DNA of 12,833 nucleotides from the IMG/VR virus record IMGVR_UViG_3300029248_000207, positions 1-12,833 of that record; one strand, given 5' to 3'. Under the pieces are notes generated by a model. It had not been told where the DNA came from and did not search any database. It saw only the letters and a program-made list of their open reading frames with translations. This DNA is from a virus (Duplodnaviria; Heunggongvirae; Uroviricota; Caudoviricetes). Positions 4,861 to 11,788 of the stretch are shown here, one piece after another. Each line of letters starts with the position of its first letter. Within the stretch, counting starts at the first letter, position 1. The position numbers were made by a program, and so were the translations under genes.

Positions 4861-5223
4861 GGGGCTGATTCTGGATTCGACGGGATTTGCGAAACCCAAG
4901 GTGCATGCCGAGGGGCGGTTGGCCTCGTAAAAAGCCGCAAAAAATAGTCGCAAACGACGAAAACTACGCTTTAGCAGCTTAATAACCTGCTTAGAGCCCT
5001 CTCTCCCTAGCCTCCGCTCTTAGGACGGGGATCAAGAGAGGTCAAACCCAAAAGAGATCGCGTGGAAGCCCTGCCTGGGGTTGAAGCGTTAAAACTTAAT
5101 CAGGCTAGTTTGTTAGTGGCGTGTCCGTCCGCAGCTGGCAAGCGAATGTAAAGACTGACTAAGCATGTAGTACCGAGGATGTAGGAATTTCGGACGCGGG
5201 TTCAACTCCCGCCAGCTCCACCA
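4861..5223 (+). ncRNA. ssrA: tmRNA (SsrA), 363 nt
   Basis: Starts GGGGCTGATTCTGGATTCGACGGG, ends GCCAGCTCCACCA. Internal tag reading frame at 4950..4982 encodes ANDENYALAA followed by a stop. tRNA-like 3' end (GGTTCAACTCCCGCC). Confidence 0.95.
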
Positions 5224-5292: not shown

Positions 5293-5335
5293 TGTCTGTC
5301 ATTGTCCGAGAACATCCGGCTAAATCCAGAGAAAA

Positions 5336-5387
5336 TTGGTACACGTTTAGGTACACGCTATACTGTGGTCCATTAAACGTGTACCAA
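5336..5387. promoter_or_regulatory. Inverted and direct repeats directly upstream of int (candidate Int/Vis binding sites or operator)
   Basis: TTGGTACACGTTT at 5336..5348 and its exact reverse complement AAACGTGTACCAA at 5375..5387 (13-bp perfect inverted repeat). GGTACACG occurs twice directly at 5338..5345 and 5350..5357. The int start codon is at 5407. Confidence 0.5.
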
Positions 5388-5406
5388 TTATGGAAGGAAT
5401 CCAGAC

Positions 5407-6612
5407 ATGGCGCGCATCACACGCCCCCTCACTAACAACGAGATCCTTAAAGCTAAACCCCGAGAAAAAGATTTCACTCTGCATGATGGGGACGGCCTGT
5501 TCTTACTCGTGAAAACATCTGGTAAAAAGCTCTGGCGCTTCCGATACCAACGTCCAGTAAGTAATAGCCGAACTAACCTGAGTCTCGGCTCATACCCTGC
5601 CCTTACACTCGCAGCAGCTCGTCAGATACGCGACCAATATTTGGCTACGCTCGCGCAGGGGATGGATCCGCAACAGCAACAAGAGCAAGCATCAGAGCAA
5701 CGTCAGATTGAGCTGGATAGCATTTTCTCAACTGTGGCCTCCAACTGGTTCAAAATGAAGAGCAAAAGCGTCACAGAGGACTACGCGAAGGATATTTGGC
5801 GTTCTCTAGATAAAGACGTATTCCCAGCAATAGGCGCGATACCTGTTCAGGAGATTAAGGCCAGAACGATAGTTGAAGCATTGGAACCAATCAAAGCACG
5901 CGGCGCATTAGAGACTGTTCGTCGCCTGGTCCAGCGCATTAACGAAATAATGATTTACGCAGTCAACACCGGNNNNNNNNNNNNNNNNNNNNNNNNNNNN
6001 NNATCAGGTGTTGGAATGGCATTTGAGAAACCCAAAAAGCAGAACATGCCCACGCTACGACCAGAAGAATTACCTAAGCTGATGCGTTCTCTGGTCATGT
6101 CGAATCTGTCTGTTTCGACTCGATGTCTTATTGAGTGGCAGCTCCTGACCCTAGTGCGCCCTTCTGAGGCTTCTGGTGCTCGGTGGGTCGAGATCGATCT
6201 CGATGCCAAACTCTGGACGATTCCCGCCGAACGAATGAAGGCTAAGCGTGAACACATTGTCCCTTTGTCACCTCAGGCTTTAGATATTTTGGAAGTAATG
6301 AAGCCAATCAGCGCTCATCGTGAACATATTTTCCCTAGTAGAAATGATCCAAAGCGGCCGATGAATAGTCAGACTGCTAATGCTGCTTTAAAACGTATAG
6401 GTTATGGTGGAAAATTAGTTGCACATGGTTTACGTTCAATAGCCAGTACAGCTCTCAACGAATCTAATTTTAATTCTGATGTGATTGAGTCTGCGCTGGC
6501 ACACACAGATAAGAATGAGGTTAGGAAAGCGTACAATCGGTCCATTTATTTGAAACAAAGAGTTGAGCTAATGGACTGGTGGGGTAATTTTGTTATGATT
6601 ACTAATAGATGA
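5407..6612 (+). CDS. intA: P4-family tyrosine integrase (IntA-like)
   Basis: 401-aa ORF next to ssrA; N-terminal arm-binding-type domain and C-terminal catalytic region with HGLRSIA and a terminal Tyr region (KAYNRS). A 30-nt N-run at 5973..6002 is in frame (10 unknown codons). Confidence 0.9.
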   Translation: MARITRPLTNNEILKAKPREKDFTLHDGDGLFLLVKTSGKKLWRFRYQRPVSNSRTNLSLGSYPALTLAAARQIRDQYLATLAQGMDPQQQQEQASEQRQIELDSIFSTVASNWFKMKSKSVTEDYAKDIWRSLDKDVFPAIGAIPVQEIKARTIVEALEPIKARGALETVRRLVQRINEIMIYAVNTXXXXXXXXXXXSGVGMAFEKPKKQNMPTLRPEELPKLMRSLVMSNLSVSTRCLIEWQLLTLVRPSEASGARWVEIDLDAKLWTIPAERMKAKREHIVPLSPQALDILEVMKPISAHREHIFPSRNDPKRPMNSQTANAALKRIGYGGKLVAHGLRSIASTALNESNFNSDVIESALAHTDKNEVRKAYNRSIYLKQRVELMDWWGNFVMITNR

Positions 6613-6625
6613 TAAAGGACTGCAC

Positions 6626-8068
6626 ATGAGCACAGTAAAAAATATTGATACCGTTTCATCAAACTTTAACATTTCGCCATCAATTCTTGATCAACTTGAT
6701 GTTGTTGATGTTTTATTAGAGTCAGATACGTTGCTTTTCATTGACCCTATGCTCCTCCCTGAAAGTAAGCATCCTGAAATGAAAGTGGATGCTGATAAGA
6801 AATACATAGATACTTTCACAAGTATCATTAAATTACTTAAAGCATCTAAGGTTCAGAATGATAATGATGTTGCTTGGAAGGCAGCCAAAAAGTTATTTTC
6901 ATTTTCCGAAATAGGATGGACATGTTTGGGTTATGGCTCATCAGCCAAAGGCTCAGGATTCGGGCCACACCTTGTGAACACAACAATGAATACTGCCTAT
7001 CAAATTATCAACATGGATATTGATGATCCTGACTTATTTATGGTCATGTCGTTATTTGAAGAAGGTATTGGGGCTGATAGAATTAGTGACATGACTACAA
7101 ATATAATATTTGAGTCCTTAGTGAAATTCTCAGAAAGAGTTAATCAAACCCTTCAAATCCCGACAAAAGAATTTTCTTTTAAAGGGAAAAAGTACATTGC
7201 CCCTCATAATCCATTAACAGATAAACCATTAATATTAGTTCCTAAAGATGTTGTCCGTGATTTGCCTATATCCACTGACTGGAGCGGTGCAGTCAGTACA
7301 ATGAAAGAAAACACGGACCTACGTGACAGAATTAATACCAACATTGGTAAACTGCTCGCATCAATGACCCAAAAAGAAAAAGCTGAAGCCAAGCGACGAG
7401 CTTTAGAGAAAAAAGAATATTTTGAAGACCTCCTAGAATTAATAAAAGAAGTAGAAAAAGAGCCTTACGATTTTAAAGCTGATAAGAATGGTGAATTATT
7501 TTGGTCAAGACTTGTATCTTCAATAGATAAAAAATACCCTTTCAATCTTTCTAAGTTTAATAAAAAACTAACCTTAGATGATGTAGAAAATTTGGTTGAT
7601 GAGATATTAACCCAATTCAAAGATCTAATTGAAAACAAAGGTCTATGGAAGGAAATGTGGGCAGATGATAAAAAACCAAGAAAAGAAAAAGCGGCTCAAC
7701 GTTTACTTTTTGCAGTAGCTTATTCATATTGCAAAGCCAATAACTTAGACATTAGCCCTGAGGCTGACTCTGGTAATGGACCTGTTGACTTCAAAGTCTC
7801 GCAAGGATTCGAGCAGAAAGTTTTAGTTGAAGTTAAGTTATCATCCAATGGTAAATTACTGCACGGATATGAAAAGCAATTAGAAATTTATAGAAATGGT
7901 GATGATACAGATCGAGCATTTTTCGTAATAGTTGATATCGGTCATTTAGGAGAAAAATACCAAAAGGTCCAGCAGGCTAGAATTGCAGCAGAAAATGAAG
8001 GTTTAAGAGCCTCAAAGATTATTCATATTGATGCACAACAAAAAGACTCTGCGAGCATTCGTATCTAG
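6626..8068 (+). CDS. Cargo protein of unknown function with a C-terminal PD-(D/E)xK nuclease-like domain; candidate anti-phage defence gene
   Basis: 480-aa ORF, uninterrupted and AT-rich compared with its neighbours; RBS-like aaggac upstream. C-terminal motifs: GPVDF (Asp codon at 7787..7789), VEVK (Glu at 7829..7831, Lys at 7835..7837), then QLEIY (QxxxY, as in RecB/Cas4-type nucleases). The N-terminal ~350 aa are unrecognised, with a Gly-rich patch (GYGSSAKGSGFG) and a charged coiled-coil-like stretch. It lies between int and cos/psu. Confidence 0.8.
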   Translation: MSTVKNIDTVSSNFNISPSILDQLDVVDVLLESDTLLFIDPMLLPESKHPEMKVDADKKYIDTFTSIIKLLKASKVQNDNDVAWKAAKKLFSFSEIGWTCLGYGSSAKGSGFGPHLVNTTMNTAYQIINMDIDDPDLFMVMSLFEEGIGADRISDMTTNIIFESLVKFSERVNQTLQIPTKEFSFKGKKYIAPHNPLTDKPLILVPKDVVRDLPISTDWSGAVSTMKENTDLRDRINTNIGKLLASMTQKEKAEAKRRALEKKEYFEDLLELIKEVEKEPYDFKADKNGELFWSRLVSSIDKKYPFNLSKFNKKLTLDDVENLVDEILTQFKDLIENKGLWKEMWADDKKPRKEKAAQRLLFAVAYSYCKANNLDISPEADSGNGPVDFKVSQGFEQKVLVEVKLSSNGKLLHGYEKQLEIYRNGDDTDRAFFVIVDIGHLGEKYQKVQQARIAAENEGLRASKIIHIDAQQKDSASIRI

Positions 8069-8073
8069 ATTAA

Positions 8074-8112
8074 TAAAGGCTCAACTATCACTTAGTTGAG
8101 CCTTTGTTATTT
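8074..8112 (+). terminator. Rho-independent terminator after the cargo ORF
   Basis: AAAGGCTCAACTAtcacTTAGTTGAGCCTTTgttatttt: about 13-bp stem followed by a T-rich tail, 6 nt after the stop codon. Confidence 0.7.
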
Positions 8113-8148
8113 TCTACCAGATTAATATATCTACATATGTTTGCGCGC

Positions 8149-8167
8149 AATGCTCTCCCCGCCACGC
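8149..8167. other. cos site (P2/186/P4-type 19-nt cohesive-end sequence)
   Basis: ATGCTCTCCCCGCCACGCC. From memory this is one mismatch from the reverse complement of the phage 186 cohesive end (GGCGTGGCGGGGAAAGCAT) and close to the P2/P4 one (GGCGAGGCGGGGAAAGCAC). It sits between the cargo gene and psu, where cos lies in integrated P4. Confidence 0.65.
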
Positions 8168-8340
8168 CTGCCCGCTTAAGAGGTCACTTTTAATGCAGGT
8201 GCATGAACGGCCTCAGGCCGCACCGGTACTGGTGTTGCGTGGGATAAAAAATACGGGGATTTTCATGCAAAGCCATGCACCTTATGGATGCATGGCTTTT
8301 TCGGGAAAAATAGCGGAATTTTCGGGGATTTTTTTGCGTG

Positions 8341-8911
8341 CTAGCGTGCGGCCAGTTCTGCACGTCGGCGGGTGTAAATCAGGTTCTGTGCTGGGGTGAA
8401 TTTCTGGCGATTATCATCCCGCGAAGCCGCATCAGGCCTGAATCCGATGCCCGTTAAAATATCGCTGTCCTGCGCGGAATAATTAATTTTTTCACCTGCG
8501 GCCAGCCACACCGACAGGGCTTCACGCAGATAATCAACCGAGTGCTGCATGGCGCTCTGTTTTACTGCGGGAAGCTGTTCGTTATACCCCATCAGCTCAG
8601 GTGCCAGCGTGGCGGCCAGCTCCGCGCCGTGCTGCTGCATAAAGTCATGGAGCCGGTTGCGGATGCTGATGTGCTGCACCTCCTCATGTGAGCGGATATN
8701 NNNNNNNNNCGGCGGCCTGATTAATTTCCCACTTTTTCACGTCGATATTGTCGCGCAAATCCTGCATTCTGAGCGGAATTTGTTCGTCACCGGCAAGGAG
8801 CTGTTCACGGTATTCCCGTTCAAGGTCTGCCAGTTCGGCTTTACGTTTCAGCCAGGTGTTTTTGTTCGTCTGACAGGCCTCAAAGGCCTGCTGTATGGTC
8901 ACAGTGGTCAC
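8341..8911 (-). CDS. psu: Polarity suppression protein Psu (capsid decoration / Rho antagonist), interrupted by a 10-nt N-run
   Basis: Two minus-strand ORFs (8684..8911, 75 aa; 8341..8679, 112 aa) together read like P4 Psu (MTTVTIQQAFEACQTNKN...EINQAA [gap] IRSHEEVQHISIRNRLHDFMQQHG...). GTG start at 8911, preceded by aggagag. The N-run at 8700..8709 separates the halves, which are in different frames as written. Confidence 0.8.
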
Positions 8912-8926
8912 GTGTCTCTCTCCTGA

Positions 8927-9166
8927 TTAATGCCGGAACGGCGAGCTGTAGCAGCCCTGTACTTTACGCGGCGGCGGTGGCGTCACCGGGGCGGGGTCGG
9001 GTTTCTCCGGTGCGGCACGTATCACACCGTCAACCGACTCGATGGTGCGGAAAGTGGCCGAGCATTCGATATTGGTACACTGGTGATAACGCTGTTTGAC
9101 GTTTTCCGACAGATAACGGCTGGTACGGACGTGCGCGGTCTTTTTGCAGAACGGGCAGTGAAACAT
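8927..9166 (-). CDS. ogr: Ogr/Delta-family zinc-finger late-gene transcriptional activator (single-domain, Ogr-sized)
   Basis: 79-aa ORF MFHCPFCKKTAHVRTSRYLSENVKQRYHQCTNIECSATF...; the CxxC...CxxxxC arrangement and sequence closely resemble P2 Ogr / P4 Delta. RBS gaggg upstream; the sid stop codon (9170..9172) is 3 nt upstream of the start. Confidence 0.88.
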   Translation of the reverse strand: MFHCPFCKKTAHVRTSRYLSENVKQRYHQCTNIECSATFRTIESVDGVIRAAPEKPDPAPVTPPPPRKVQGCYSSPFRH

Positions 9167-9169
9167 GAT

Positions 9170-9913
9170 TCAGCCCTCTGCCTGTTCGTGGTCTTTTGCG
9201 GCCAGTTCAGCGGCAAGCTTCATCCGTCTGGCCGGGCTTCTTAACAGCGCCATATCAACCCCGGTTATGACCGGGCGATTCATGCCCGTTACGGACAGAA
9301 CCGGCTCCTGCTCCATATCAAAATGATACAGGGCTGACTGCAGATTCAGGGCATCACCCAGCTCGCGGGTCACGGTCGCACGCGGCGAGGTTTCTCCGCT
9401 CATTTCCAGCGACCGTATACGCAACAGAAAGGCACGTAACAGTGCGGGGCTGATACCGGTCAGCGCCTTCTTCCACTCGCTGTTGGCGTAGGTAGTGAAC
9501 GCTTTTTCATGGGCGCTGATGTAAGCCGTACCGGAGGAGCATGCGCCAAGCATGGCGAGGTTTTTGTCTTTCTCCAGCTCGGTAATCAGACCGGTAAACT
9601 CATCAGCCAGTTCGCGGCTGGCGATACGTTTACTGTGTTCAGCTTTCAGTTCAGGAGTGAGGTTGCCGCGCAGGGTTCGAAAGCGGCTGCGCCAGTCCTG
9701 TTCGGCCTGTGCACTTTCACTGAGCGCGGTCTGTCGTTCCTGCTCACAACGCTGAATGGAAGCCTCAATGTCGCTGAGTTTACCCATGCTGGCCGAGTGT
9801 GCGTCTTTTGCTTCGTTAAGTGCGGCCAGCGCACCGGCAATACGTTGTTCCGCGCCTTCATCCTGTTTACTGATAACGGTCTGCATGGCTTTGATAATGA
9901 GTTCGGGTTTCAT
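9170..9913 (-). CDS. sid: Sid-like capsid size determination (external scaffold) protein
   Basis: Minus-strand ORF in the sid position of the sid-delta-psu operon. Start chosen at the ATG giving MKPELIIKAM (247 aa, close to P4 Sid length), with ggag upstream. The in-frame ATG at 9979 (269 aa) is the alternative, but it would start only 6 bp from the activator dyad. Confidence 0.72.
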   Translation of the reverse strand: MKPELIIKAMQTVISKQDEGAEQRIAGALAALNEAKDAHSASMGKLSDIEASIQRCEQERQTALSESAQAEQDWRSRFRTLRGNLTPELKAEHSKRIASRELADEFTGLITELEKDKNLAMLGACSSGTAYISAHEKAFTTYANSEWKKALTGISPALLRAFLLRIRSLEMSGETSPRATVTRELGDALNLQSALYHFDMEQEPVLSVTGMNRPVITGVDMALLRSPARRMKLAAELAAKDHEQAEG

Positions 9914-9984
9914 GTTCAGGTTCTCCGTATGTTCAACCTGAAATGATTCTGACGCCTCCTGCACAACAACACGATTCATTGCCG

Positions 9985-10002
9985 TTGTCAGAGTGCTGGC
10001 AC
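9985..10002. promoter_or_regulatory. TGT-N12-ACA dyad: candidate Ogr/Delta binding site of the late promoter driving sid-ogr-psu
   Basis: TGTcagagtgctggcACA. P2/P4 late promoters carry a TGT-N12-ACA activator site centred near -55. This dyad is about 80 bp upstream of the proposed sid start at 9913. Confidence 0.55.
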
Positions 10003-10081
10003 AAACAGACCTTAAAATCAGGCTGGCCAGAGAAAGGTCGCAGGAAAACCTTACTCACCGTTTGTTTTTTTACTTATAACT

Positions 10082-10184
10082 ATTCACCACTGTTCACCTT
10101 AAATAAAAAGATAAGTAATACAGCAAGTTAAATGGTGAACAGTTGAAGGTCTGACTGTTCACCGTCTGTTCACCACTGTTCACC
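10082..10184. repeat. Cluster of TGTTCACC octamer iterons (candidate alpha-protein binding sites / replication origin)
   Basis: Exact TGTTCACC at 10091..10098, 10156..10163, 10167..10174 and 10177..10184 (the last three spaced 11 and 10 bp apart). Inverted copy GGTGAACA at 10134..10141. Degenerate ATTCACC at 10082..10088. Confidence 0.7.
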
Positions 10185-10264
10185 CTTCAGTTTTGCTCTG
10201 GCTATATCATCTAGACTTTATTACGATTAAAAACGAAAAGTATATAACTAAAAGAGATATTAAT

Positions 10265-10325
10265 TGCTGCATTGTAATGCAGTGATTTGCATATGTTTGC
10301 CAGCGTTTGCCTTTGTTTGCCAGAG
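10265..10325. promoter_or_regulatory. Palindrome plus three phased GTTTGCC repeats upstream of vis/alpA (candidate operator of the leftward-operon promoter)
   Basis: CTGCATTgtAATGCAG at 10267..10282 (7-bp perfect arms, 2-bp spacer). GTTTGCC at 10295..10301, 10305..10311 and 10315..10321, with 10-bp periodicity. Confidence 0.4.
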
Positions 10326-10446
10326 CGAAAAGTCAATGTTTGTCCGAAAATCTCACATGACCTGAGGGAAAATATAAACATAATAAGGAGCTACCCGAAG
10401 CCGGACGGACACGACCGGCACTGTATGGACTTTGTGAGGTAGCCCG

Positions 10447-10713
10447 ATGCACACCGCTTTTTCTTCCCCGTCTTCTGCCCCTGCCGCGCCGCTGATGCCG
10501 GTTTCTGATACCGTTCACGAGCGCTTTATCCGTCTGCCCGAAGTGATGCATCTGTGCGGCCTGTCCCGCTCGACCATTTACGACCTCATCAGCCGGGAAG
10601 CCTTCCCGAAACAAATCTCCCTCGGCGGAAAAAACGTGGCGTGGGCGCAGTCTGAAATCACTGCATGGATGGCGGATCGCATTGCCGAACGTAACCGGGG
10701 CTATGACGCATGA
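10447..10713 (+). CDS. alpA: AlpA/Vis-family phage regulatory protein (excisionase-like HTH)
   Basis: 88-aa ORF (P4 Vis is orf88); the RLPEVMHLCGLSRSTIYDLISREAFPKQISLGGKNVAWAQSEITAWMADR region resembles the AlpA/Vis winged-helix; RBS gagg 8 nt upstream. Confidence 0.85.
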   Translation: MHTAFSSPSSAPAAPLMPVSDTVHERFIRLPEVMHLCGLSRSTIYDLISREAFPKQISLGGKNVAWAQSEITAWMADRIAERNRGYDA

Positions 10714-10840
10714 TGATGGCCGCTCAGCAAAAAGCCCCTTTTTCTGGCTTGCTTCTTTTCGCCGTTTCCAGGTATAGTTTTCCCGCTGTCGCAAAATCGG
10801 CAGCCGGGCGTAGGAACCCGTGTAATTCACAGGCGACAAC

Positions 10841-10865
10841 AGACGCGCCATGCGTCTTTTTTTAC
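10841..10865 (+). terminator. Rho-independent terminator inside the immunity-like region
   Basis: AGACGCgccatGCGTCTtttttttt: 6-bp GC-rich stem plus T8, about 25 nt downstream of the first GCGTAGGAAC element. Confidence 0.55.
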
Positions 10866-10995
10866 GTCGTTGCTCAGGCACACCCATTTTTCGGGCTGTA
10901 GCCCCTGTCAGATAATGGTGGTCCGGGCGGGGCAGCTTTCGGGCTGGCCGGTATTCTGTGAAGCCGGTATTCCTACCCCCGTTCGGGTCACCACC
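10866..10995 (+). ncRNA. Candidate P4 CI-like immunity RNA region (contains the seqB-like element); ends undetermined
   Basis: No plausible ORF here. CCGGTATTCCTAC (10964..10976) is complementary to GTAGGAACTCCGG (11003..11015; 11 of 13) and partly to GCGTAGGAAC (10808..10817). CCGGTATTC is also duplicated at 10948..10956. This matches the seqA/seqB/seqC logic of P4 immunity. Confidence 0.3.
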
Positions 10996-11052
10996 CATGA
11001 GCGTAGGAACTCCGGTGGTGGCAATAACCGCTATTCACAGGAGGTTGCCATC

Positions 11053-11247
11053 ATGGCTACGACCCTCACCCCGTCACACCCGCAGTTTGTCTTTGTGTTT
11101 GCCGCCGTTCGTCGCGCAGACCGTAAACCCCGTATTTGCATGCTGCGCACCGTTGCCGGTGACGAGCACGCCGCACGCCTTTCCCTCGTTCGCGATTACA
11201 TCCTCTCGTTCGCTGGCCGTTTGCCGGTTCTGGAGGTGCGCGCATGA
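11053..11247 (+). CDS. Hypothetical small protein (P4-like early operon)
   Basis: 64-aa reading from an ATG preceded by a strong RBS (cacAGGAGGttgccatcATG); its stop overlaps the next start (ATGA at 11244..11247). The longer six-frame ORF from 10870 has no RBS. Confidence 0.55.
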
Positions 11248-11471
11248 GACACACCACCATTACCGCCCGTGACCTCGAATGTCTGGAGCATATGCGCAAC
11301 GTCGGCCAGCTCGTCGGCGACCTGATGCAGGTGCAGGACTGCGCCACCGTTCGTCGTGACCCGACGCAGCAGTTACAGCTCACCTCCGTGATTTACCTCA
11401 TGACCGCCCAGCTCGACGGCGTGGTCGAACGCTGCAATCAGCACTGGCTGACCGGGGAGAGCAACGTATGA
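11244..11471 (+). CDS. Hypothetical small protein (position corresponds to the epsilon/anti-repressor region of P4-like elements)
   Basis: 75-aa ORF translationally coupled at both ends (ATGA overlaps at 11244 and 11468); no recognisable motif. Confidence 0.5.
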
Positions 11472-11788
11472 AAAAGCCATTACCGCCCGTATTACGCGCC
11501 GCGCTGTATCGTCGCGCCGTGGCCTGTGCATGGCTGACCCTGTGCGAACGCCAGCACCGCTACCCGCACCTCACCCTCGACGCGCTGGAAAGCGCCATTG
11601 CGACCGAGCTGGAGGGCTTCTATCTGCGCCAGCATGGCGAGGAAAAAGGCCGTCAGATTGCCTGTGCCCTGCTTGAAGATTTAATGGAAGCCGGACCACT
11701 CAAAGCCGCCCCGTCGCTGTCCTTTCTCGGGCTGGCCGTGATGGATGAGCTTTGCGCCCGTCATATCACCGCACCGGTACTGCACTGA
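11468..11788 (+). CDS. Hypothetical protein, 106 aa, immediately upstream of the primase
   Basis: ORF coupled to the upstream gene and ending 14 nt before the primase start; P4 has an orf106 in the equivalent position, but I cannot confirm sequence similarity. Confidence 0.5.

What the first reader, a model, noticed from the sequence alone, without database searches (positions are those of the whole stretch)
6270..6612. Compositional break inside int: the AT-rich 3' end looks co-acquired with the cargo gene
The first two-thirds of int have a composition like the neighbouring phage genes. From about 6270 to the stop, the gene becomes AT-rich and continues without transition into the AT-rich cargo ORF. 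This suggests the cargo module was exchanged by recombination with a breakpoint inside int, so int is mosaic. If so, the conserved flanks (int 5' part and cos/psu) act as the recombination handles for hotspot swapping.
Basis: inference. Interest (0 to 1): 0.5.

Follow-up and report, generated by a model that had tools for sequence, protein, structure and literature searches.

The report
Mosaic integrase beside satellite defence hotspot
The last ~350 bases of the integrase gene of this P4-like phage satellite are AT-rich and are inherited together with the neighbouring defence-type cargo gene rather than with the rest of the integrase, which maps where defence-gene swapping cuts on this side of the hotspot.

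Summary
The best GC change point in int plus cargo is at window 6279 (support 6230-6390). GC falls from 0.50 to 0.36, and GC3 from 0.51 to 0.30, against 0.28 in the cargo. A break at the int stop codon fits 7 lnL units worse.

Against its two closest int relatives, which carry other cargo, the window has no mismatch over 6203-6260 and dense mismatches from 6261. Four lineages carrying the same cargo family share the int 3' end from about 6388 at 85-98%, although their int 5' part belongs to another clade (50-75%). Across 81 int alleles, cargo identity predicts int 3' identity (rho 0.82) far better than int 5' identity (0.39).

Three refinements:
- The AT-rich 3' end is family-wide (76 of 81 alleles), so it is not a mark of this particular acquisition.
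- Cargo homologues outside satellites carry no int remnant.
- The left recombination handle is the conserved central block of int (about 5950-6260), not its 5' part.

On the right, the variable block ends at 8142, 8 nt from cos.

This is a new, well-resolved detail of the known P4 psu-int defence hotspot. It is not a new kind of system.

The parts
4861..5223 (+). ssrA (tmRNA), the chromosomal attachment locus. The satellite begins just after it.
   Evidence: ARAGORN. RefSeq annotation of near-identical E. coli loci.
5334..5389 (.). Perfect 16-nt inverted repeat (AATTGGTACACGTTTA / TAAACGTGTACCAATT) plus a third GGTACACG copy, 18 nt upstream of the int start. Candidate Int arm-type or operator sites; this is inference.
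   Evidence: the repeat finder.
5407..6612 (+). int, a tyrosine integrase. Domains: Arm-DNA-bind_3, Phage_int_M, Phage_integrase. Bases 5973-6002 are an N mask replacing 21 nt.
   Evidence: ORF list. Pfam E = 5e-24, 2e-27 and 2e-30. Mask length.
5407..5950 (+). int 5' segment (arm-binding and N-terminal core-binding part), GC about 0.50. Belongs to 'clade A': 86-87% to SM107/Res13, 66-70% to all other ssrA alleles.
   Evidence: Segment identity matrices. dS 0.8-1.0 within the clade and saturated between clades.
5951..6260 (+). Conserved central block of int, GC 0.50-0.60. 93-100% to SM107, Res13 and L005/L006; 82-90% to the rest. It holds the long exact runs (58-71 nt) that can support homologous crossover. 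Inferred left recombination handle.
   Evidence: Longest identical runs. No mismatch to SM107/Res13 over 6203-6260.
6261..6612 (+). AT-rich, cargo-linked 3' block of int (GC 0.38-0.39, GC3 0.30). It encodes the HxxR and Tyr part of the catalytic domain. Sub-blocks: 6261-6305 still L005-like; 6388-6612 at 95% to the same-cargo element MB06172; the last 30-50 nt (tail after the WWG motif) are non-homologous (27-47%) among alleles with other cargo.
   Evidence: GC change point 6279. Break points 6259, 6304 and 6388. dS. Family-wide linkage.
6626..8068 (+). Cargo ORF of 480 aa, GC 0.35. DUF8370 + DUF8371. Weak match to PADLOC candidate PDC-M36A. Candidate single-gene defence protein with a PD-(D/E)xK-like C-terminal motif, read by eye.
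   Evidence: PADLOC E = 1e-13. Precomputed Pfam labels. No hit in my Pfam copy or in the PDB.
8071..8109 (+). Terminator-like hairpin closing the cargo unit.
   Evidence: Homology with same-cargo elements ends at about 8110-8130.
8143..8340 (.). Conserved cos-psu flank. The cos cohesive-end sequence lies at 8150-8168 (GGCGTGGCGGGGAGAGCAT on the - strand, against P4 GGCGAGGCGGGGAAAGCAC). The variable region ends at 8142.
   Evidence: Alignment to the P4 genome ends. Shared about 190-nt flank in all elements. Mismatch map.
8341..8911 (-). psu (polarity suppression protein); N mask at 8700-8709. 97-99% identical to SM107 psu. Right recombination handle.
   Evidence: Coordinates mapped from the KMi029 annotation. 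Identity profile.

Best explanation
The window holds a P4-like satellite integrated at ssrA. Its known defence hotspot, between int and cos/psu, carries a 480-aa candidate defence gene.

The unit that is exchanged between satellites is not just the cargo. It runs from inside int to the edge of cos, about 6261/6306/6388 to 8142. Different-cargo int alleles are only 70-79% alike over the last ~350 nt, with longest identical runs of 13-26 nt in this element. The nearest sequence able to support RecA-type homologous crossover on the left is therefore the conserved central block of int. So each swap drags 75-370 nt of int 3' end with the cargo.

This has two consequences. The 3' end diverges in step with its cargo. 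It also shares the cargo's AT-rich synonymous-site composition.

On the right, the exchanged block stops within about 8 nt of cos or in the cos-psu flank. That fits either a double crossover or the published idea of one cos-end event plus one homologous crossover.

Shown: the compositional break, the mosaic structure, the break points and the cargo linkage. Inferred: that homologous recombination in the central block is the mechanism, and why the block is AT-rich.
For: - GC change point at 6279; GC3 0.51 to 0.30; p = 0.004.
- Sharp identity breaks at 6261 (SM107, Res13) and 6306 (L005). Against MB06172, which has the same cargo, mismatches become sparse from 6388.
- dS by segment: 0.10-0.21 in the core, saturated in the 3' part for other-cargo alleles, and 0.24-0.28 for the same-cargo allele.
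- Segment trees disagree. L005/L006 are clade B in the 5' part but 97% to the window in the core. MB06172 is clade B in the 5' part but 90-94% in the 3' part.
- 81 alleles from about 70 species: same-cargo pairs have higher 3' identity (81 vs 73%, label-permutation p = 2e-4). Cargo identity correlates with int identity at rho 0.82 (3' part), 0.64, 0.61 and 0.39 (5' part). Excess identity decays from +27 points at the stop codon to about 0 in the 5' part.
- 21 of 22 different-cargo pairs with near-identical cores break inside int, at 6240-6261, 6336-6415 or 6504-6538.
- Longest exact runs are 58-71 nt in the core against 14-21 nt in the 3' part for the window's closest alleles.
- The right edge is at 8142, cos at 8150-8168, and psu is 97-99% to SM107.
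- Rousset et al. 2022 (PMC9122126) proposed a cos-end event plus a second homologous crossover, without mapping it.
Against: - No near-identical donor of the 3' block plus cargo was found. The best is 88-95% (MB06172), so the event itself is not caught in the act and its direction is unknown.
- Linkage is not absolute. 22 different-cargo pairs share at least 85% in the 3' part, for example L010/L012. Some swaps therefore cut at or after the int stop.
- Several same-family cargo pairs have only about 70% identity in the 3' part, although their cargo is equally diverged.
- AT-richness is shared by 76/81 alleles. It cannot by itself show acquisition, and its cause is unexplained.
- Pair statistics are not phylogenetically independent.
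- Recombination is inferred from sequence patterns only.
Confidence: 0.8

Rival explanations
1. The AT-rich 3' end is an intrinsic, ancestral trait of this integrase subfamily, set by codon-level or regulatory constraint (for example a promoter or silencing signal for whatever lies downstream). On this view it says nothing about recombination or cargo acquisition.
For: The same GC/GC3 drop at the same alignment column occurs in 76 of 81 alleles from about 70 species and beside at least 10 unrelated cargos. GC3 of the 3' end does not correlate with downstream GC. A promoter-like site with an extended -10 lies at 6572-6599, 27 nt before the cargo ATG.
Against: It explains the composition but not the 10-fold dS differences between segments, the sharp break points, the conflicting segment clustering or the cargo-linked identity. 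The count of promoter-like sites is not above shuffled expectation (5 against 6.6). P4's own int keeps GC about 0.5 through the catalytic residues and is AT-rich only in its last 113 nt, so the trait is not general to P4 integrases. This rival fits as a complement to the main explanation rather than a replacement.
Confidence: 0.12
2. int evolved vertically as one piece and its 3' third simply evolves faster under relaxed constraint. The identity drop and AT drift would then be rate heterogeneity, not mosaicism.
For: dN is higher in the last 78 codons (0.12-0.19) than in the core (0-0.06), and the C-terminal tail is length-variable.
Against: Synonymous sites should share one divergence time within a gene pair, but they range from dS 0.10 to saturation. 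The ranking of relatives changes between segments. The 3' end is the most conserved segment (95%) against the same-cargo element, whose 5' part is 62-73%. Catalytic residues in the 3' part are invariant.
Confidence: 0.03
3. The AT-rich 3' end is foreign DNA that arrived with the cargo from its non-satellite donor and was fused onto a truncated int.
For: Composition is continuous from 6279 into the cargo (GC3 0.30 against 0.28).
Against: The 3' end is homologous to int in all 81 alleles and encodes the invariant HxxR and Tyr motifs. Cargo homologues in Serratia and Cronobacter chromosomal contexts begin homology at 6609 and have no int remnant by blastn or tblastn.
Confidence: 0.01
4. The compositional step is a chance fluctuation or an assembly or masking artefact.
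For: The upstream part also fluctuates, with a dip to 0.415 at 5800-6099. The window contains N masks.
Against: Codon-shuffle p = 0.004 and LR 51 with the cargo included. The mask (5973-6002) lies outside the region. The same sequence occurs at 99.3-99.97% in more than 10 independent assemblies.
Confidence: 0.01

Closest known systems
P4-like satellite defence hotspot between psu/cos and int (Rousset et al. 2022, PMC9122126; de Sousa et al. 2026, PMC13586616)
   Same: Same gene order: ssrA-int-[variable AT-rich cargo]-cos-psu-delta-sid-...-alpha. The cargo sits directly next to cos. Neighbouring E. coli elements carry PARIS-like, Gabija-like, HNH+AAA and other systems at the same place.
   Different: Neither paper, as far as I searched it by keyword, maps where the swaps cut. 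One speculates on a cos end plus a second homologous crossover. The other excludes int from its core-gene analyses. Here the left cut is placed inside int, with a linkage gradient of 75-370 nt.
Integrase exchange in P4-like elements (de Sousa and Rocha 2021, PMC8628076)
   Same: That paper reports that the int tree disagrees with the other core genes and that integrases are often exchanged. Here the int 5' part falls into two deep clades independent of the rest of the element.
   Different: That work treats int as a single unit. Here the conflict lies within the gene: three or four zones with different histories.
Hitchhiking of flanking genes next to diversifying loci, such as gnd beside the E. 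coli O-antigen cluster, and sequential displacement of T6SS effector modules in Vibrio cholerae (PMC5361080, title and abstract only)
   Same: Conserved flanks serve as crossover sites. The flank nearest the variable locus is co-transferred and shows raised divergence and mosaicism.
   Different: The gnd comparison is from my own knowledge and was not tested here. The present case is on a mobile satellite. Its left flank is an enzyme gene whose catalytic C-terminal part is the hitchhiker, and its right flank is a packaging site with an almost fixed edge.
Phage P4 int (NC_001609)
   Same: It has the same arm-type DNA-binding annotation. Its 3' end also runs into AT-rich hotspot DNA: the last 113 nt have GC 0.195.
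   Different: In P4 the AT-rich part is only the tail after the WW motif, and the catalytic part stays at GC about 0.5. In the ssrA family the AT-rich zone reaches about 350 nt into the gene.

Membership tests
P4-like phage satellite | Core gene set: int, psu, delta, sid, alpA, an epsilon/ash-type gene, and alpha primase-helicase, in the P4 order | tested here: met
   The KMi029 annotation of the 99.6%-identical element, mapped to the window, gives int 5407-6612, psu 8341-8911, delta 8927-9166, sid-like 9170-9913, alpA-type HTH 10447-10713, Icd/ASH-like 10710-11247, DUF5375 11468-11788 and alpha from 11803. The sid homologue is annotated only as hypothetical, and alpha is cut by the window end.
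P4-like phage satellite | P2/P4-type cos site next to psu | tested here: met
   Window 8150-8168 matches the 19-nt P4 cohesive end at 16/19, and flanking homology continues on both sides.
P4-like phage satellite | Mobilisation by a P2-like helper | not testable with these tools
   Indirect only. The same element occurs at 99.3-99.97% in different chromosomal contexts and assemblies.
P4 psu-int defence hotspot | A variable gene set between int and cos/psu that differs between otherwise related elements | tested here: met
   At least 10 unrelated cargos at this position in ssrA-integrated E. coli elements. Only the ~190-nt cos flank is shared.
P4 psu-int defence hotspot | The cargo has anti-phage activity | tested here: inconclusive
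   Only a weak match to PADLOC candidate PDC-M36A (E = 1e-13, N-terminal half) and DUF8370/DUF8371 labels. No solved-structure relative and no experiment.
Tyrosine integrase (Phage_integrase, PF00589) | Catalytic domain with conserved R, HxxR and Y residues, plus an arm-binding N-terminal domain | tested here: met
   Pfam E = 2e-30 (catalytic), 2e-27 (central) and 5e-24 (arm). R248, H337-x-x-R340, H363 and Y373 are invariant in 11 alleles.
Intragenic recombinant (mosaic) gene | Segments of one gene with significantly different divergence at synonymous sites and conflicting nearest relatives | tested here: met
   dS ranges from 0.10 to saturation within single pairs. Break-point models improve lnL by 40-80 units. 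Segment matrices conflict. No formal PHI or GARD test was run.

The most novel reading that the evidence does not exclude
The central block of int and cos act as a dedicated cassette-exchange system. A terminase-cut or freshly injected cos end supplies one fixed junction, and a single crossover in the int core supplies the other. The 3' end and C-terminal tail of Int then become part of each defence cassette. They may co-evolve with it, for example by carrying the cassette's promoter or ribosome-binding context, or by tuning Int activity. The AT-rich synonymous composition of the block would mark a zone that escapes the recombinational homogenisation, and any GC-biased conversion, that keeps the rest of the satellite at about 50% GC.
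Probability: 0.2. Interest if true: 0.65.

Novelty: new member of a known kind. Interest (0 to 1): 0.45.

Why it matters
How defence systems are swapped so quickly at the P4 hotspot is an open question in recent papers (PMC9122126, PMC13586616). These data give sequence footprints of the left crossover, inside int at three recurrent zones. They also show a clear asymmetry with the right side, which ends within about 8 nt of cos.

There are three practical consequences:
- int, or at least its last third, should not be used as a single phylogenetic or typing marker.
- The int 3' end can serve as a tag for tracking cassette lineages.
- Hotspot-extraction pipelines that cut at the int stop codon miss part of the exchanged unit.

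It also offers a natural system for testing whether zones excluded from homologous exchange drift AT-rich.

Tried and rejected
- A single-sequence scan of genome contigs with the cargo protein found nothing. I replaced it with the search for homologous proteins plus look-up of encoding contigs.
- Contigs with the 100%-identical cargo all carry the whole element at 99.3-99.97%, so they say nothing about break points.
- 2022CK-00450 has the same Int protein, but the satellite is truncated by IS1 just after int. It is uninformative about int mosaicism.
- Chi sites as a cause of the break-point position: there is no exact GCTGGTGG in int. The only near match is a 7/8 site (ACTGGTGG, 6575-6582) formed by the conserved WWG codons. 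Rejected.
- Cargo promoter inside the int 3' end: one candidate at 6572-6599, but promoter-like sites are not enriched over shuffles. Left open.
- Correlation of int 3' GC3 with downstream or host-flank GC: none (rho 0.07 and -0.01). The AT-richness is not simply tuned to the individual cargo or host.
- Pfam (my copy) and PDB sequence searches gave nothing for the cargo. I did not attempt structure prediction because it does not bear on the finding.

Full report
**Setting**

The window is E. coli chromosome running nadK-recN-bamE-yfjF-ratA-smpB-ssrA. The tmRNA gene is at 4861-5223. A P4-like satellite follows it:
- int, 5407-6612 (+)
- a 480-aa AT-rich ORF, 6626-8068 (+)
- a terminator-like hairpin, 8071-8109
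- cos, 8150-8168
- psu, 8341-8911 (-)
- delta, a sid-like gene, alpA, an Icd/ASH-like gene, DUF5375, and the start of alpha

Two N masks (5973-6002 and 8700-8709) replace 21 and 6 nt. E. coli KMi029 (L002) carries the same element at 99.6% identity. Its int has no difference from the window outside the mask, so I used it as an unmasked proxy and converted coordinates back to the window.

**The observation**

A two-state likelihood model of G+C over int plus cargo places the change point at 6279, with a 2-lnL support interval of 6230-6390. GC is 0.504 to the left and 0.358 to the right (LR 51). Forcing the break to the int stop codon costs 7 lnL units.

Within int alone the LR is 15.0, and 4 of 1000 codon shuffles reach it. 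The change is mostly at third codon positions:

| Region | GC3 |
|---|---|
| int 5407-6269 | 0.514 |
| int 6270-6612 | 0.296 |
| cargo | 0.283 |

**Is int mosaic?**

I collected ssrA-integrated P4-like elements with other cargo from complete E. coli genomes. The cargos were HNH+AAA, Gabija-like, a 908-aa P-loop NTPase, AAA+HNH, HEPN+DUF262, a 913-aa restriction enzyme, DUF2326, PARIS-like and others.

Codon-aligned comparisons show three or four zones:

| Zone | Window coordinates | Identity to other alleles |
|---|---|---|
| 5' part | 5407 to about 5950 | Two deep clades: 86-87% to SM107 and Res13, 66-70% to all others |
| Central block | about 5950-6260 | 93-100% to SM107, Res13 and L005/L006; 82-90% to the rest |
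| 3' part | 6261-6580 | 70-79% among all alleles with different cargo |
| C-terminal tail | last 30-50 nt | Essentially non-homologous (27-47%) |

At base resolution, the window has no mismatch to SM107 or Res13 over 6203-6260. From 6261 there is a mismatch every 3-6 nt. Against L005 the dense mismatches start at 6306.

Synonymous divergence (dS) confirms different histories within single gene pairs:

| Comparison | 5' part | Core | 3' part |
|---|---|---|---|
| Window vs L005 | 2.8 | 0.10 | saturated |
| Window vs SM107 / Res13 | 0.76-0.97 | 0.21 | 2.5 to saturated |

The nearest relative also changes by segment. L005/L006 are clade B in the 5' part but 97% to the window in the core.

**Is the 3' end linked to the cargo?**

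The best E. coli match to 6256-6625 outside the window's own lineage is MB06172 at 88.9%. It turns out to carry a homologous 480-aa cargo at 88% nucleotide identity.

Against MB06172, the window's int is 50-75% identical in the 5' part and 82-88% in the middle. It is 95% identical from 6388 to the stop, with dS 0.24-0.28. Klebsiella-type (L024-L026) and Erwinia persicina (L027) elements with the same cargo family behave alike, at 85-92% from 6388.

dS in the int 3' end ranks the three lineages in the same order as dS in the cargo:

| Pair | dS, int 3' end | dS, cargo |
|---|---|---|
| L002-L011 | 0.24 | 0.61 |
| L002-L024 | 0.66 | 0.88 |
| L011-L024 | 0.71 | 1.17 |

Cargo homologues in Serratia and Cronobacter sit in non-satellite contexts. 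There, homology to the window starts at 6609, which is the int stop codon and ribosome-binding region. No int remnant is detectable. The int 3' end is therefore genuine int sequence that co-segregates with the cargo inside satellites. It is not DNA imported with the cargo from outside.

**Generality**

A profile scan of one genome per species gave 80 further loci. Together with the E. coli set, 81 intact non-redundant alleles were codon-aligned.

The composition result is family-wide:
- Mean GC3 is 0.488 over columns 1-822 and 0.357 over columns 870-1170.
- 76 of 81 alleles show the drop (Wilcoxon p = 1.6e-14).
- The drop starts at the column equivalent to window 6256.
- The 1.5 kb downstream of int is always AT-rich (0.345 +/- 0.038).

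The AT-rich 3' end therefore does not mark this particular acquisition.

The linkage result is also general. I defined shared cargo by tblastx over the first 1.5 kb after int.
- 32 same-cargo pairs have higher int 3' identity than 2950 different-cargo pairs (81 vs 73%, label-permutation p = 2e-4). The effect is smaller for the other segments.
- Among same-cargo pairs, cargo nucleotide identity correlates with int identity at rho 0.82 (3' part, p = 7e-9), 0.64, 0.61 and 0.39 (5' part).
- For nine same-cargo pairs chosen for cargo identity of at least 80%, the excess identity over the different-cargo background is +27 points in the last 45 nt. It is +12 to +14 at 6466-6496, about +7 at 6376-6436 and 0 to +3 in the 5' part.
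- In 21 of 22 different-cargo pairs whose cores are at least 92% identical, identity falls sharply at a point inside int. These points cluster at window-equivalent 6240-6261 (7 pairs), 6336-6415 (6 pairs) and 6504-6538 (8 pairs).

There are exceptions. 22 different-cargo pairs keep at least 85% identity in the 3' part, for example L010/L012. Some swaps therefore cut at or after the int stop.

**The right side**

All cargo regions share only the last ~190 nt before psu (window 8143-8340). Among clade-B elements this flank is 96-99% identical regardless of cargo. The non-homologous region ends at 8142, 8 nt from the cos cohesive-end sequence.

SM107 psu is 97-99% identical to the window's psu, and the cos flank is 85-88%. 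Relative to SM107, the replaced block therefore runs from 6261 to about 8142-8325. Same-cargo elements lose homology right after the cargo terminator, at about 8110-8130. Their cos flank is only about 78% identical.

Linkage thus extends hundreds of bases into int on the left but stops at the cargo edge on the right.

**Mechanism (inferred)**

For the window's closest alleles, the longest exact runs are 58-71 nt in the central block and 14-21 nt in the 3' part. Across all E. coli different-cargo pairs, the median longest run in the 3' part is 17 nt, and 14% of pairs reach 25 nt.

The nearest sequence fit for homologous crossover on the left is therefore the central block. That explains why the 3' end is dragged along and then diverges with its cassette. 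The fixed right edge at cos fits two models: a second crossover in the cos-psu flank, or the published speculation of a cos end plus one homologous crossover (PMC9122126).

Why the linked block is AT-rich at synonymous sites is unexplained. It is not tuned to the individual cargo or host GC. P4's own int is AT-rich only in its last 113 nt. One untested idea is that the block escapes the recombinational homogenisation, and any GC-biased conversion, that acts on the rest of the satellite.

**Comparison with what is known**

The hotspot, its position next to cos and its rapid swapping are published (PMC9122126, PMC13586616). So is the disagreement between the int tree and the other core genes (PMC8628076). 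In the papers I searched by keyword, int is treated as one unit or excluded, and no break points are mapped. A further literature search found no report of this pattern.

The pattern itself, hitchhiking of a conserved flank next to a diversifying locus, is a familiar population-genetic phenomenon.

**Verdict**

I classify this as a new member and a finer description of a known kind, of moderate interest.

Noticed in passing
window 5334-5389: A perfect 16-nt inverted repeat (AATTGGTACACGTTTA / TAAACGTGTACCAATT) with a third GGTACACG copy at 5350-5357 lies between ssrA and the int start codon. It may be Int arm-type sites or an int operator.
   Followed up: partly
window 6626-8068: The cargo is a 480-aa DUF8370+DUF8371 protein. 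More than 1700 homologues were found, 53-60% identical among those listed outside Enterobacterales, in Vibrio, Shewanella, Pseudomonas, Aeromonas and others. It has a weak PADLOC PDC-M36A match and a C-terminal PVDFK...VEVK motif that looks PD-(D/E)xK-like by eye. There is no PDB relative by sequence.
   Followed up: partly
L015, L018, L021 and L026 (loci): The same element (99.8-99.97%), or its Klebsiella-type relative, sits in other contexts. In some it lies downstream of an ABC-transporter/AprE-type pair. In others it is in tandem behind another phage integrase plus a roughly 400-aa gene. This indicates recent movement between hosts or sites.
   Followed up: no
L001 (E. coli 2022CK-00450), locus 8327-10275: An identical Int protein is followed directly by IS1A and a truncated amylase gene. 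The rest of the satellite, and apparently chromosomal DNA up to glaH, has been deleted.
   Followed up: no
L003 (SM107) and L027 (Erwinia persicina): int is a pseudogene in both: an internal stop in SM107 and an indel near window-equivalent 6346-6363 in Erwinia. The cargo ORF remains intact, so these are decaying satellites that keep their cassette.
   Followed up: no
L011 (MB06172), locus 7974-10603: The hotspot holds the 480-aa cargo, then a portal-protein pseudogene, then a DUF3226 + AAA ATPase pair. This is a stacked, composite cassette array. Psu and delta are also in swapped order.
   Followed up: no
window 6575-6582: The conserved WWG codons of Int create a 7/8 Chi-like site (ACTGGTGG) at the start of the hypervariable tail. 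It is probably a coincidence.
   Followed up: partly
window 5973-6002 and 8700-8709: The N runs do not preserve length: 30 N stand for 21 nt and 10 N for 6 nt. ORF lengths and downstream coordinates are therefore shifted relative to the real sequence.
   Followed up: yes
L113 (phage P4), int nt 1207-1320: The last 113 nt of P4's own int, the tail after the WW motif, have GC 0.195 against 0.487 upstream. The AT-rich hotspot DNA also reaches into the int ORF in the type element.
   Followed up: partly
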